Source: Mizuhopecten yessoensis (lineage: Eukaryota). From it: a stretch of 64,000 bases of DNA. This document shows positions 9,001-18,000 of this stretch, one piece after another. Position 1 is the first letter of the stretch. The number at the start of each line of letters is the position of its first letter. Position numbers: made by a program. The DNA lies in assembly GCF_002113885.1 (NCBI RefSeq), contig NW_018408028.1, positions 556,895 through 620,894 on the forward strand. The letters are read 5' to 3'.

Positions 9001-12000
9001 ATGTATGAATGTAGCCTATATGTTGGTGTCCTATTTATCAAAATACAACAATCTAATAACAGACAGTTTCACAAATCGCTTAATTGTGGTCATTTTAAGA
9101 TTTTTCTTTCAGCAATGATTAAGGGAGATTTAAGAATATTCAATAAGGAAAACTCATAAATAAAATGTTTGTTATAGCCAGAAGTGTTTGCAGATAGAAT
9201 TATCCTGTTGAATCTTAGACATAAAAAGAGATATATTTTTCAAGCAATTTTTTATCCTATAACAGTTTTAGTATCGTTACTGATCAGAAGATGAATTACA
9301 CATACTGTTATATTACAGATGAACATAGGGATCAACCCCGCTGCTCTACTACCTGGGGCGGCCCCACCTGTGAAGGAGCCAGAACCGGTCGCTATAGGAT
9401 TTGACCAGCCCGCTGAGGTCAAAACCCTACACAGCGCCTCAAAGGTACGAAACAGAAACATGTAACCACCAGCAGACAACTTTTATACATGATCAATTGC
9501 TCATTCTTCGAATCCTCATCAAAGATAACTTTTCATGAATGCATTTTCTAGTATCAAGACAAAATACTTTATTGAAGACACCAAAAATTATTAGATAAAT
9601 TAATCAAAATACACTCAATAGTACATTTGGAGGTCGGAGCCAGAATGGTGACCTTATTACTGACATATACATTTGCAAATGTAATTGCATTTATAGTTGA
9701 GAATATTTTCTCTCAGTATTATGATGGAGGGTATATTGTGTATTTTCCAGGACCGTGCAAGAATACAGACGAAACGCCGCCCACCCAGTCGCATGGCTCG
9801 TCAATCAAAGGGAGATAGTAGCACCAGTGATTTATTTAGCCCTTCATCGCCACCTGGTGATGATGTTCCCAAAGAGATGCCAAAACCAGTTGTGAATAAT
9901 CGAGTGCCGCAACCAACCTCCGATCTTTTTGGTAACGATGATTTGCTGGATGGTGGCTCTACGACACCTGTCAAGTCAGCTCCTATTGTCCAAGAAAATC
10001 ACCTATTCTCAGGTGGAGCTTTCTCCTCAGGTGCTAAAGTTACAAAATCAAAAAAAGGGGTGGACGATGATTTGTTTGGAAGTCCGACTAAATCGGTTGT
10101 GAAGTCAGCGACTAGTGACGATGTATTTGATGTGTCATCTAAAAAGCCTAGTACACTAATGAACAACGATGAGGAGGAGGATTTGTTTGCTCCTAAATCT
10201 TCTAAAAGGTCTACTAAAGTTACTGATGAGGACGATATATTTTCTACGTCACAGCCAAAAGTGTCAAAACAGTTGCTAAATGACGATAACTTATTCCCTT
10301 CAAAGTCAGGAACAAAGAATGATAACTCTAAGGCGCTGCCACCTAGTGAGAAATCTACAAACGGTACTCAGAATGATGATGATATATTTGGGGGTGTAGG
10401 CACACCCAAGAAAACAGGTACGGTATTTTATTTGTACTTCTTTACCCAGTAGGTTTAGGTTAGATTCTGTTTTCCAGGCAAGAATGAGAAAAAAAAACCA
10501 GATGTATATATTTTCTCTGTAGTTTATTCCATTTAAGGCCGACAGTCCAAATTAATCAACTTCAGTTGAAATAAAATAAAATGTTCAGAATGCTTTTGAG
10601 ATGATCCCTTCTATTGACCATCTTGTCTGGCCATCATATCCAAGGAAATACTTTAGCGGGGCAGAGGTATGGTGAGCCTGGCTCATTTTGTGTCAGTTTA
10701 ACACCTGACCCTAACTTTTCGCTCTTTCAATGAATTATCAATTTTAACAATTATAGATTACTTCTGTAGGAAAGATAAATTCATCAAAACTTGAGTGTAT
10801 AGCGCCTATTATATAGTCTTCACTTCAAAATCCCTAATTGATTTTATTGATTACAACTGTAAATACCAATTGTACAGTAGTTTTTAGTATCATGTAGTTG
10901 TATAAATAGTTGTATAATCTATTCATTTTATTAAGATTCCAGGAGTGAGGTGTGGGGTGTGTGGAGTGATAAATATGTAATGTAAACAAGACCTCCTCAA
11001 TGATGCTATTTCCTTTGTGACCAACAGGACTTAGGTCCTTCCTCTATATGACTGAGGAATGATTTACGTAGAATATCTTTCTGTAAATGAAGGAAGTTCA
11101 CTCAATTAATTTACATTACTTGTTCGTTTTGAAACATGATATTTTCCTGTTGTCTATTTCAGATATGAAATTTGAGGTTTCTGATTTTCCCCTGTTGTCT
11201 ATTTCAGAAGCAAAGCCTGTACTTGAAAAAGACAAAATGAACAATGATGATATATTTGCTGGAGCCACGGACACTGTGAAAAAAGTAGAAAAACCCAATC
11301 AGGATGAGGTTAGTTTTACAGACTTGTAACTTAGGTAGAATAATGGCCGTGCAAGCCTAGGTAGGTAAAGACAGGTTTCTAGGGTAAGAAAGGGGTGCAA
11401 GACATTTCTTTCTTACTCCTCGAACTGCTCAGCATGACATGCCGTCAAGAATTTGAAAAAGTCTGATGCCACAATGCGGAAATAAAGGAGTCTTATAATA
11501 AAAAAGAAAACACAACTAAATTCCACAATTCATTTCCAGGACGAAGACTTGTTTGGAAAGCCAATGGAAAAGAAGAAACGGCAAGTGAAACGAGCCCCAA
11601 AGACGAAAGATGAAGATTTATTTAATGACAACACAGACATTTTTGCTGACGTCCCTGCATCTAAACCCAAGGAGAAGAAGAAGAAAAAGACGACAACTGG
11701 AGGCTCAAAGAGCTTATTTAAAGACACGGATGGTTTAGGTATGTGTAGGGATATCATCGTATAAGACCCGGATGGTTAAGGTATGTGTAGGGATATCATG
11801 ATATAAGACACGGATAGTTTAGGTATGTGTAGGGATATCATCGTATAAGACCCGGATGGTTAAGGTATGTGTAGGGATGTCATGGTATAAGACACGGATA
11901 GTTTAGGTATGTGTAGGGATATCATGGTATAAGACTCGGATGGTTTAGGTATGTGTAGGGATAACATCGTATAAGACACGGAGGGTTTAGGTATGTGTAG

Positions 12001-15000: not shown

Positions 15001-18000
15001 CACGGATGGTTTAGGTATGTGTAGGGATATCATCGTATAAGACACGGATGGTTTAGGTATGTGTAGGGATATCATCGTATAAGACACGGATGGTTTAGGT
15101 ATGTGTAGGGATATCATCGTATAAGACACGGATGGTTTAGGTATGTGTAGGGATATCATCGTATAAGACACGGATGGTTTAGGTATGTGTAGGGATATCA
15201 TCGTATAAGACACGGATGGTTTAGGTATGTGTAGGGATATCATCGTATAAGACACGGATGGTTTAGGTATGTGTAGGGATATCATCGTATAAGACACGGA
15301 TGGTTTAGGTATGTGTAGGGATATCATCGTATAAGACACGGATGGTTTAGGTATGTGTAGGGATATCATCGTATAAGACACGGATGGTTTAGGTATGTGT
15401 AGGGATATCATCGTATAAGACACGGATGGTTTAGGTATGTGTAGGGATATCATCGTATAAGACACGGATGGTTTAGGTATGTGTAGGGATATCATCGTAT
15501 AAGACACGGATGGTTTAGGTATGTGTAGGGATATCATCGTATAAGACACGGATGGTTTAGGTATGTGTAGGGATATCATCGTATAAGACACGGATGGTTT
15601 AGGTATGTGTAGGGATATCATCGTATAAGACACGGATGGTTTAGGTATGTGTAGGGATATCATCGTATAAGACACGGATGGTTTAGGTATGTGTAGGGAT
15701 ATCATCGTATAAGACACGGATGGTTTAGGTATGTGTAGGGATATCATCGTATAAGACACGGATGGTTTAGGTATGTGTAGGGATATCATCGTATAAGACA
15801 CGGATGGTTTAGGTATGTGTAGGGATATCATCGTATAAGACACGGATGGTTTAGGTATGTGTAGGGATATCATCGTATAAGACACGGATGGTTTAGGTAT
15901 GTGTAGGGATATCATCGTATAAGACACGGATGGTTTAGGTATGTGTAGGGATATCATCGTATAAGACACGGATGGTTTAGGTATGTGTAGGGATATCATC
16001 GTATAAGACACGGATGGTTTAGGTATGTGTAGGGATATCATCGTATAAGACACGGATGGTTTAGGTATGTGTAGGGATATCATCGTATAAGACACGGATG
16101 GTTTAGGTATGTGTAGGGATATCATCGTATAAGACACGGATGGTTTAGGTATGTGTAGGGATATCATCGTATAAGACACGGATGGTTTAGGTATGTGTAG
16201 GGATATCATCGTATAAGACACGGATGGTTTAGGTATGTGTAGGGATATCATCGTATAAGACACGGATGGTTTAGGTATGTGTAGGGATATCATGGTATAA
16301 GACACGGATGGTTTAGGTATGTGTAGGGATATCATCGTATAAGACACGGATGGTTTAGGTATGTGTAGGGATATCATCGTATAACTAGACACCGATGGTT
16401 TAGGTATGTGTAGGGATATCATCGAAAAAGACATGGTTACTTAAACCTCTTGTCAGACACATATTATACTGGGAAATATTGCCTTTTTCGCCCTCCATAA
16501 TGAGGTTGAATTTATCATTACAGCCAACCTTAGTCAACAACATAATATACATAGTAATAAAATGTGAAGGACGAATTTAACACTGGGCAAATATGGATTA
16601 TACCGGCAAAGGGTGAAAGTTTCCTGGTAAAGAGTAATTGTAACTTTTATACATTGTACAAGCATGGAACAAATTATTGTGAATCGGTTATTACAAAAGG
16701 TGTTCCAATGGTACTAATGTACATGTGTTTCCATTACACAGCCCCGAGATAAATCTACCAAAAATGCTGTAATAAACTCCCCACAGCCAGAACTACGGTA
16801 CTGTTCAATCAGGGACAAATCATGTTGTCATGTCATATTCTAACTATGACGGAAATTCACAGATGATTTATGGTCATTTAGATTTGTCTGTGTGAAATAT
16901 CCATTTTAGTATTTGGCTGCAAAATAAACATCCCAATTTGAAATCAAATGTAGATTCTTTTATTCTTCCCTATTGAAGTTATTCATGAACAAAAACACTG
17001 ATTTACAAGCCAAATTGATCATCAATACATACTTGTTCTCCCTTGTTGCAGACGACATCTTTGCCAGTGCTCCACCCAAAACCAAGACAACCAAGAAGGA
17101 GAAAGCCAAGAAAACCGCTCCAGCCGCTGAGAAAAAGACTGGTGCGGATTCAAATGATATTTTTGATGATCCCCTCGGCAACTAATTAAACAAGATGGCC
17201 ACCTCTTTAAACACGTAGCCTTGAACTGATGATGTTGTGGTGACCTCTAGGATAACCATGTGGTCACCTTGGTGAAGAATATGACTAGGAAGAAATGACC
17301 TTCATCTTTATTGTGTGACCTTGATGGTAAAACATTCTCCAAAGAGTGACCTTGGCAAGAAAGTTATGACCTTCATCTTGGATATTTTACCTTGATGATG
17401 AAACAATTGCTTAGCAATTACCTTGACCAGGAATCCATGACTATCTTGTGTGCTGAACATTGCTTAAGGAATAACTTTGATTGTTTTGGGGGTTATACGG
17501 TATATACCGAAAAATCTGTATGGACTTTGCATAAAGCCCACATATATAACGAAAGAAGTCATAGTTATTCCTTATAATTAAATTCAGAAAGACAGACAGC
17601 ACTACTTTGTCTATAGTTAATGAGTATTTATTTATTTATGATAAAAACAAAATTCCCACAAAACACAGCATTGTGGTGTAGTATCATTGCTGAGCCACTC
17701 AATTAATCAGAAATTAGAATTACAAACACAGTGCCAAACATTGCAGTATACAATGTCATCTGTTTTTGTGTTTATGTGTACAGGGAAAACTTCTGAATTC
17801 AAACCGAGAAATATATGTGATTTAAAATGATTTTTTGTGACTTTTCTCGATCAGCAAAATTAATACAATTACACTAGAATGAAATGTATTTTTGATCGTA
17901 GTTTTTCGAGGGTACGAAAGGAAACAGATATATTATATTACTTGGCCTGATAAAACATTTTTAAATACTGTAATGTACCTGATATCTTATTTACACCCCA

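What the first reader, a model, noticed from the sequence alone, without database searches (positions are those of the whole stretch)
11721..16433. A 5' splice site amplified about 112-fold: minisatellite made from the WASHC2 last exon/intron junction
Seen: the 42-bp unit consists of the last 18 nt of the coding exon plus the first 24 nt of the intron, so the last intron opens with 4.7 kb of identical TAG|GTATGT donors; some edge copies are AAG|GTATGT, closer to consensus. Only the first donor (11738) keeps the frame open, because every later unit has an in-frame TAA (first at 11762-11764) giving ..DTDGLGMCRDIIV* and losing the terminal LFa repeats. Established: the most C-terminal FAM21 LFa repeats are principal retromer-binding sites, and the >50-nt rule governs NMD. 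Inference: donor 2 would give a truncated NMD-escaping isoform and later donors NMD substrates, so copy number could tune WASHC2 output. The array is also a dense U1 snRNP landing pad and a natural test of 5' splice-site choice.
Basis: partly seen in the sequence, partly recalled or inferred. Interest (0 to 1): 0.72.

Follow-up and report, generated by a model that had tools for sequence, protein, structure and literature searches.

The report
Splice donor repeated 112 times in scallop WASHC2
The last intron of a scallop trafficking gene opens with 112 tandem copies of its own exon-intron junction; such arrays are already known in several human genes, where the extra splice sites are mostly or wholly unused.

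Summary
Window 11721-16433 is a 42-nt tandem array of 112.1 copies. Its first unit is the last 18 nt of a coding exon plus the first 24 nt of the last intron. The gene is the WASHC2/FAM21 orthologue of the Yesso scallop Mizuhopecten yessoensis (100% match to a named NCBI protein). It is not human.

The named protein and its Ylistrum balloti orthologue both read KDTDGL|DDIF, so donor 1 (11738) joined to 17052 is the productive junction. Every later donor would run into TAA 11762-64 and lose the last 44 residues, including an FDDPL motif that binds VPS29 in human FAM21.

The kind is known. Human F7 intron 7, IFI6 (6-16), CBS, LMNB2 and PDGF carry minisatellites whose first monomer spans an exon-intron boundary. 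In F7 only the most upstream donor is used (PMC1557585).

Most likely this is a neutral minisatellite in a minisatellite-rich genome, about 25 arrays in 64 kb, with the pseudo-donors silent or nearly so. Tuning of output by copy number is untested, and nothing here supports it.

The true copy number is unverified: 95 consecutive units are identical, and I could reach no reads, transcripts or other scallop genomes.

The parts
11540..11738 (+). Penultimate coding exon of scallop WASHC2 (199 nt; ...SLFKDTDGL, ends in phase 1)
   Evidence: Exact mapping of P0001 onto the window with GT-AG borders; ORF translation.
11736..11744 (+). Authentic 5' splice site TAG|GTATGT (cut after 11738), the most upstream of 112 copies
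   Evidence: It matches 7 of 9 positions of CAG|GTAAGT; the gene's other 14 donors in the window match 5-8.
11721..16433 (+). 42-nt minisatellite, 112.1 copies; unit 1 spans the exon/intron junction
   Evidence: TRF; slice table; 112 of 112 pattern matches fall inside it.
11762..11764 (+). First in-frame TAA of the read-through frame; it would end any mRNA made from donors 2-112
11763..12266 (+). Units 2-13: the diverged 5' edge (1-4 substitutions each; shared variants show duplication of two-unit blocks, e.g. units 2-3 and 9-10). Donors 2, 4 and 9 are AAG|GTATGT.
12267..16256 (+). Units 14-108: 95 consecutive identical units, identical also to unit 1
16383..16438 (+). Last unit with a 2-nt insertion, then a decayed partial unit (AAAGACA-TGGTT). 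This partial unit repeats the AAAGACA..TGGTT word at the 5' edge of unit 1 and may be the microhomology that seeded the first duplication.
   Evidence: The role as seed is inference.
16434..17051 (+). Unique remainder of the last intron, ending in a pyrimidine-rich acceptor (16 of 20 Y before CAG)
17052..17185 (+). Last coding exon (44 aa, DDIFASAPP...NDIFDDPLGN) with its stop codon; carries the R21-like FDDPL motif
   Evidence: human motif from PMC11010949 section 2.4.

Best explanation
This is an intronic minisatellite in the last intron of the Mizuhopecten yessoensis WASHC2 (FAM21) gene.

Origin (inferred): a 42-nt segment straddling the exon-intron junction was duplicated, probably by slippage or unequal exchange between two AAAGACA..TGGTT words 42 nt apart. 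One unit type was then amplified, recently, towards the 3' side.

Splicing: the productive mRNA is made from the first donor (11738) joined to the acceptor at 17052. This is shown at the level of the annotated protein and its orthologue. The other 111 copies are pseudo-5' splice sites. They are removed with the intron and are silent or nearly so. The reason offered (inferred from the human F7 experiments) is that the splicing machinery takes the most upstream functional donor next to a defined 199-nt exon.

Context: donor 1 differs from the others only in what lies upstream of it. That is purine-rich coding sequence close to the upstream acceptor, rather than repeat sequence.

Function: the array has no demonstrated function. 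It is most likely a neutral or mildly costly by-product of a genome full of minisatellites. Its main effect is to stretch a roughly 650-nt intron to 5.3 kb.
For: - The array and junction anatomy are as described.
- P0001 (NCBI: WASH complex subunit 2A-like isoform X2, M. yessoensis; 100% identity to exon 9751-10416) reads ...KDTDGLDDIFASAPP...DIFDDPLGN. The Ylistrum balloti orthologue P0002 reads ...KDTDGLDDIFGNTT...DIFDDPLGNM. The donor-1 junction therefore gives the conserved protein, and the 18 exonic nt are ancestral.
- Without 111 units and the 2-nt insertion, the intron would be 649 nt. The median of the other 14 introns is 719.5 nt.
- Minisatellites are common here: about 25 distinct arrays in 64 kb and 8 in the 17 kb of this gene. 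A second array ends 9 nt from an acceptor.
- The unit occurs nowhere else in the window.
- The 70 nt upstream of donor 1 are 73% purine with 7 GAR triplets. For an internal donor the figures are 59% and 0.
- Precedent: in human F7 IVS7, identical pseudo-sites stay silent while the upstream site is intact. LMNB2 and PDGF behave likewise (PMC1557585: abstract, Introduction, first Results subsection and Discussion read).
- There is no RNA structure that could single out a donor (z = +1.43), and no Rfam family.
Against: - No transcript data were reachable, so exclusive use of donor 1 is not shown. P0001 is a predicted model, and I could not see its sister isoforms (database off).
- Donor 2 is only 42 nt downstream and fits the consensus better (AAG|GTATGT; 8 vs 7 of 9 positions of MAG|GTRAGT; PWM 10.93 vs 7.06).
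- IFI6 and CBS do use their first two pseudo-sites (PMC1557585 Introduction).
- The F7 rule was shown in mammalian cells with 5 pseudo-sites, not in a mollusc with 111. The same paper notes older duplicated-site experiments with opposite outcomes.
- In the diverged units 2-13, the 13 positions AG|GTATGTGTAGG never vary. A simulation gives P about 0.05. This could hint at constraint on the pseudo-donors, or be chance.
- 95 identical units in a row may partly reflect assembly or polishing rather than biology.
Confidence: 0.68

Rival explanations
1. The pseudo-donors are used at a meaningful rate. Donor 2 gives a truncated protein (..DTDGLGMCRDIIV*) that lacks the retromer/VPS29-binding end and escapes NMD. 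Later donors give NMD substrates. Array length would then set how much full-length WASHC2 is made.
For: - The arithmetic holds: TAA lies 16 nt before junction 2 and 58 nt or more before later junctions.
- The last exon carries DDIF and DIFDDPL, and the human equivalents matter most for retromer binding.
- Donors 2, 4 and 9 are AAG|GTATGT, a better consensus fit.
- IFI6 and CBS use their first two pseudo-sites.
Against: - No transcript evidence exists for any donor but the first.
- In F7, LMNB2 and PDGF the pseudo-sites are silent.
- In the known cases that do leak, only the first two pseudo-sites are used. On that pattern, copies 4-112 would add nothing, and copy number would not tune output.
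- The junction-based NMD rule is not established for molluscs (recalled).
- A minisatellite-rich genome explains the array without any function.
Confidence: 0.1
2. The array is real, but its length and its perfect interior are products of assembly or polishing. The true allele may be much shorter, longer or more varied.
For: 95 consecutive units are identical, while both edges, which anchor in unique sequence, show variants. At 4.7 kb it is six times longer than the next arrays in the window.
Against: - The window is contiguous across the array.
- The 12 diverged units with block structure, and the variant units 109 and 112, cannot come from a collapse artefact.
- Another array in the window is also 100% homogeneous (44334-44691).
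- Young minisatellites with a homogeneous core are ordinary (recalled).
Confidence: 0.17
3. The array works at the RNA level independently of splice choice. It could be a sink for U1 snRNP, protecting the long intron from premature cleavage. Or it could be a coat of hnRNP A1-type repressor on the UAGGGA word present in every unit, which would keep the pseudo-donors shut.
For: There are 112 sites with 7 of 9 U1-complementary positions, one every 42 nt. There is one TAGGG per unit. The link of UAGGGA to hnRNP A1 and of U1 to telescripting is recalled, not tested.
Against: - No evidence for protein binding.
- The F7 study excluded autonomous intronic regulating elements in its own case (heading of a Results subsection in the outline; statement in the Discussion).
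- The array would be a very recent addition, given its identical units, to an intron that was already of normal size.
Confidence: 0.05

Closest known systems
Human F7 intron 7 37-bp VNTR (Borensztajn et al. 2006, PMC1557585)
   Same: It is a minisatellite whose first monomer spans the exon-intron boundary, so the authentic donor is followed by identical pseudo-donors. The productive mRNA uses the most upstream one.
   Different: F7 has 5-9 copies against 112 here. Its monomer is 4 exonic + 33 intronic nt, against 18 + 24 here. It is a vertebrate gene. Its behaviour was shown by 50 minigene constructs, whereas nothing is tested here. Here every pseudo-site leads to the same early stop.
Human IFI6 (6-16) intron 2 minisatellite and CBS intron 13 VNTR (as described in PMC1557585 Introduction)
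   Same: The donor is reiterated by a boundary-spanning minisatellite (25 pseudo-sites in 6-16; 15-20 repeats in CBS).
   Different: In both, the first two pseudo-sites are used as well as the authentic site. Whether that happens in the scallop is unknown.
Human LMNB2 (100 bp x 10-15) and PDGF intron 4 (81 bp x 16-18) minisatellites (PMC1557585 Introduction)
   Same: They are boundary-spanning arrays in which only the authentic donor is used, which is the behaviour I expect here.
   Different: Longer units and about ten times fewer copies.
Recursive (ratchet-point) splice sites of long fly introns (recalled)
   Same: Each unit holds a juxtaposed AG|GT (TTTAG|GTATGT). Splicing to it would regenerate the donor.
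   Different: The acceptor side is poor: 8 of 20 pyrimidines against 10-17 in the 15 real acceptors, and no YTNAY branch word in the unit. I reject this as the mechanism.

Membership tests
Boundary-spanning minisatellite with reiterated 5' splice site (F7 IVS7 type) | Tandem array of 10-100-nt units inside an intron | tested here: met
   Period 42, 112.1 copies.
Boundary-spanning minisatellite with reiterated 5' splice site (F7 IVS7 type) | The first monomer contains the exon-intron junction, so the donor sequence is repeated in the intron | tested here: met
   Exon 15 ends at 11738 and the array starts at 11721. There are 112 AG|GTATGT copies.
Boundary-spanning minisatellite with reiterated 5' splice site (F7 IVS7 type) | The most upstream donor is the one used for the normal mRNA | tested here: met
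   P0001 and the orthologue P0002 read KDTDGL|DDIF. Exclusive use could not be tested because no transcripts were reachable.
Boundary-spanning minisatellite with reiterated 5' splice site (F7 IVS7 type) | Copy number varies between alleles (VNTR) | not testable with these tools
   No reads, no second assembly and no eukaryote genome collection on hand.
Boundary-spanning minisatellite with reiterated 5' splice site (F7 IVS7 type) | Pseudo-sites are functional when upstream sites are inactivated | not testable with these tools
   Needs minigenes. The sequence is identical to the authentic site in 108 of 111 pseudo-sites.
WASHC2 / FAM21 | Capping-protein interaction region (Pfam CAP-ZIP_m) | tested here: met
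   The ORF holding exon 9319-9444 (queried as 9295-9465) scores 38.8 bits against a cut-off of 28.2. The match continues into the next exon at 19.2 bits, below the cut-off.
WASHC2 / FAM21 | Long tail with many L-F-acidic repeats | tested here: met
   45 [LIM]F words in residues 221-1565 of P0001. Exon translations show DxLF/acidic runs. The formal 21-repeat count of human FAM21 was not attempted.
WASHC2 / FAM21 | C-terminal R21-type motif FDDPL that binds VPS29 | tested here: met
   The last exon ends NDIFDDPLGN. The human motif is 1331-FDDPLNA-1337 (PMC11010949 section 2.4). Binding itself was not tested.
WASHC2 / FAM21 | Named orthologue at full identity | tested here: met
   P0001, 'WASH complex subunit 2A-like isoform X2 [Mizuhopecten yessoensis]', 100% identity over 222 aa, E = 3e-132.
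Recursive splice site array | Functional 3' splice site (pyrimidine tract, branch word) directly before a regenerated donor | tested here: not met
   8 of 20 pyrimidines and no YTNAY in the unit.

The most novel reading that the evidence does not exclude
The array is a length-variable dial on WASH-retromer coupling. Leak to donor 2, which fits the consensus better than donor 1, would make a stable WASHC2 that lacks the FDDPL/VPS29-binding end. Leak to later donors would destroy the message. Alleles of different length or edge composition would then give different amounts of retromer-competent WASH complex. Independently of that, with 111 pseudo-sites it is the largest natural tandem series of one 5' splice site that I found described (five cases in one paper; searches). 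It would be a stringent test, in an invertebrate, of whether the most upstream donor always wins.
Probability: 0.08. Interest if true: 0.6.

Novelty: new member of a known kind. Interest (0 to 1): 0.3.

Why it matters
If the pseudo-donors are silent, this is an extreme example of a known rule. One correct 5' splice site would be chosen out of 112 near-identical ones, in an animal far from the mammals in which the rule was worked out. That makes it a cheap natural substrate for splice-site-choice experiments.

It also carries practical warnings for annotation. The minus strand of the array is a 1456-residue open frame that is not a gene. The copy number in an assembly of such an array should not be trusted without spanning reads. 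If the pseudo-donors do leak, the loss of the conserved VPS29-binding end of WASHC2 would be a real functional consequence.

Tried and rejected
1. Recursive splicing at TTTAG|GTATGT. Rejected: weak acceptor context and no branch word.
2. RNA structure hiding the internal donors. Three core units fold worse than shuffles (z = +1.43; 191 of 200 shuffles fold at least as well).
3. A dispersed satellite family that happens to resemble the exon end. There is no copy outside the array in the window, and the exon end is conserved in Ylistrum. A genome-wide check was not possible.
4. A known RNA family in the intron or window: 0 Rfam hits at gathering thresholds.
5. The minus-strand 1456-aa frame as a gene. 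It is a mechanical result of a 3x14 unit and was not pursued.
6. Constraint on the donor core among the diverged units. The longest invariant run is 13 positions, simulation P = 0.049. This is too weak to use.
7. Isoforms of P0001 through the listing of cluster members. The database was switched off, so sister isoforms stayed unseen.
8. Literature on scallop minisatellites or this locus. Searches listed nothing relevant, judged from titles and abstract starts only.
9. A genome-wide human study of splicing-associated tandem repeats (PMC10078293, passages only) held nothing on boundary-spanning arrays.
10. A link between F7 repeat number and factor VII level. One search listed papers, but I read only one passage (PMC6627357). 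It restates the scanning rule, so I make no claim on that link.
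Full report
**What is there**

Window 11721-16433 is a head-to-tail array of a 42-nt unit: 112.1 copies, 98% matches, no indels, TRF score 9154. I cut it into 42-nt slices from 11721. 98 of 113 slices equal the consensus. These are unit 1, units 14-108 (95 in a row), and units 110-111. 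Units 2-13 carry 1-4 substitutions each, with variants shared between units in a way that shows two-unit blocks were copied (units 2-3 resemble 9-10). Unit 109 has one change, unit 112 has a 2-nt insertion, and then the repeat decays.

A 28-mer across the junction, with up to 3 mismatches, is found 112 times. All matches lie inside the array on the + strand. None was expected in 100 shuffles.

**Which gene and which organism**

The + strand of 1-17185 carries exons rich in LF-acidic words.
- The ORF holding exon 9319-9444 (queried as 9295-9465) matches Pfam CAP-ZIP_m above its cut-off (38.8 vs 28.2 bits).
- Exon 9751-10416, searched on its own, is 100% identical over 222 residues to 'WASH complex subunit 2A-like isoform X2 [Mizuhopecten yessoensis]' (P0001, 1565 aa, E = 3e-132).
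- The same exon is 67% identical to the Ylistrum balloti protein and 35-38% identical to the oyster and mussel proteins.

I searched single exons only. The window holds one N, which I left as it is.

**Exon map**

Placing residues 628-1565 of P0001 on the window gives 16 exons, all with GT-AG borders. Exon 15 is 11540-11738, with donor TAG|GTATGT. The last coding exon is 17052-17182, followed by TAA.

The last intron is 5313 nt, of which 4695 are array. Without the 111 extra units and the 2-nt insertion it would be 649 nt. The median of the other 14 introns is 719.5 nt.

**Which donor is productive**

P0001 ends ...SLFKDTDGLDDIFASAPP...NDIFDDPLGN, and the Ylistrum orthologue ends ...SLFKDTDGLDDIFGNTT...NDIFDDPLGNM. 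The 11738->17052 junction therefore gives the conserved protein, and the exonic 18 nt are ancestral. The array was made from the junction, not the other way round.

Reading on past 11738 gives ..DTDGLGMCRDIIV and TAA at 11762-64. Any donor from 2 to 112 would end the protein there and remove the last 44 residues. Those residues hold DDIF and DIFDDPL.

In human FAM21, the repeats at the very C-terminus (R20, R21) contribute most to retromer binding. R21, 1331-FDDPLNA-1337, sits in the VPS29 pocket (PMC11010949, passages and section 2.4).

The stop lies 16 nt before junction 2 and 58 nt before junction 3, so the arithmetic is right. Whether a junction-distance rule governs NMD in a mollusc is another matter. 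From recall, it does not in flies and worms.

**The donors**

The array holds 109 TAG|GTATGT and 3 AAG|GTATGT. The AAG copies are donors 2, 4 and 9. TAG|GTATGT matches 7 of 9 positions of CAG|GTAAGT, while the other 14 donors of the gene in this window match 5-8.

Against MAG|GTRAGT, AAG|GTATGT matches 8 of 9 and TAG|GTATGT 7 of 9. On a small matrix built from those 14 donors, they score 10.93 and 7.06. Donor 2, only 42 nt downstream, is therefore the better fit to the consensus. This is the best argument for some leak.

Donor 1 stands out only by its upstream context. Its upstream 70 nt are 73% purine with 7 GAR triplets. For an internal donor the figures are 59% and none, and the internal context includes one TAGGG. 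Reading the purine run as enhancer-like and UAGGGA as an hnRNP A1 word is from recall and untested.

Three core units fold no better than shuffles (z = +1.43), so no structure marks out a site. The AG|GT in each unit is a poor acceptor: 8 of 20 pyrimidines against 10-17 in the real acceptors, and no YTNAY. I therefore reject stepwise recursive removal.

**How it arose (inference)**

The 5' edge reads TTTAAAGACACGGATGGTT, and the sequence just after the last unit reads GAAAAAGACATGGTTAC. This is either a decayed last unit or the original downstream half of a short direct repeat 42 nt apart that seeded the first duplication by slippage. The two readings cannot be told apart here.

The diverged units at the 5' edge are the old part. 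The 95 identical units are a recent burst from an unmutated unit, or in part a product of assembly.

**Is it unusual for this genome?**

TRF lists about 25 distinct arrays in the 64 kb, 8 of them in the 17 kb of this gene. One of these, 39 nt x 6.2 at 3670-3912, stops 9 nt short of an acceptor and repeats a TTCTAG word. With so many arrays, one that starts a few bases inside an exon is not a great coincidence (rough inference). What is unusual is the size: 4.7 kb against about 0.75 kb for the next longest.

**What is known**

This kind of feature is in print. Borensztajn et al. 2006 (PMC1557585; I read the abstract, Introduction, first Results subsection and Discussion) describe the human F7 intron 7 VNTR.
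- The unit is 37 bp, the first monomer spans the exon 7-intron 7 boundary, and there are 5-9 copies.
- Only the most upstream donor is used.
- Each pseudo-site becomes active when those upstream of it are mutated.
- Pseudo-sites raised to a consensus value of 91 still do not compete.
- The farther the first usable site lies, the more the exon is skipped.

Their Introduction lists four more cases:
- IFI 6-16: 25 pseudo-sites, and the first two are used besides the authentic site.
- CBS intron 13: 15-20 repeats, and two pseudo-sites are used.
- LAMIN B2: 100 bp x 10-15, authentic site only.
- PDGF: 81 bp x 16-18, authentic site only.

A later review repeats the F7 rule (PMC6627357, one passage). 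I found nothing on this scallop locus or on scallop minisatellites of this kind (listings only). I found no larger series of reiterated donors (listings, plus the papers named above).

**Verdict**

The gene name, the junction, the stop and the lost motifs are right.

The interpretation goes beyond the evidence. Nothing shows that any donor but the first is used. In the known cases that do leak, only the first two pseudo-sites are used, which would make copies 4-112 irrelevant to output.

My best reading (0.68) is a neutral boundary-spanning minisatellite with silent or nearly silent pseudo-donors, and so a new and very large member of a known kind. A copy number distorted by assembly gets 0.17 and is compatible with either reading. 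An RNA-level U1 or hnRNP role gets 0.05.

**What stayed unchecked**
- Transcripts and raw reads.
- The sister isoforms of P0001 (database off).

Noticed in passing
window 12070-16440, minus strand: The reverse strand of the array is a single open frame of 1456 residues, a 14-residue repeat with a Met in each unit. It is a mechanical result of a 42-nt unit with no stop in that frame, and gene callers could mistake it for a gene.
   Followed up: partly
window 3670-3912: A second minisatellite of the same gene (39 nt x 6.2, 92% matches) ends 9 nt before the acceptor of the exon at 3921. It repeats a TTCTAG acceptor-like word six times. This is a smaller mirror image on the 3' splice-site side.
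   Followed up: partly
window 1-64000: The window is very rich in minisatellites: about 25 distinct arrays with periods 15-53 nt, 8 of them in the introns of WASHC2.
   Followed up: partly
window 21111-41566, minus strand: ORFs with homeodomains (21111-21923; 36904-38457, E = 2.5e-13) and a SATB-type ubiquitin-like oligomerisation domain (41306-41566, E = 1.7e-15). This is a SATB/Dve-like homeobox gene lying tail to tail with WASHC2.
   Followed up: no
window 44334-44691: A 27-nt array of 13.3 copies with 100% matches, open in three frames. It is a second perfectly homogeneous array, which shows that perfect arrays are not unique to the WASHC2 intron.
   Followed up: no
window 11763-12266 (units 2-13): Among the diverged units, the 13 unit positions AG|GTATGTGTAGG never vary, while 13 other positions do. 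A simulation of the longest invariant run gives P = 0.049. This is marginal and could be chance.
   Followed up: yes
window 7872-7897: The named protein requires a 26-nt micro-exon between two introns of about 0.9 kb each.
   Followed up: no
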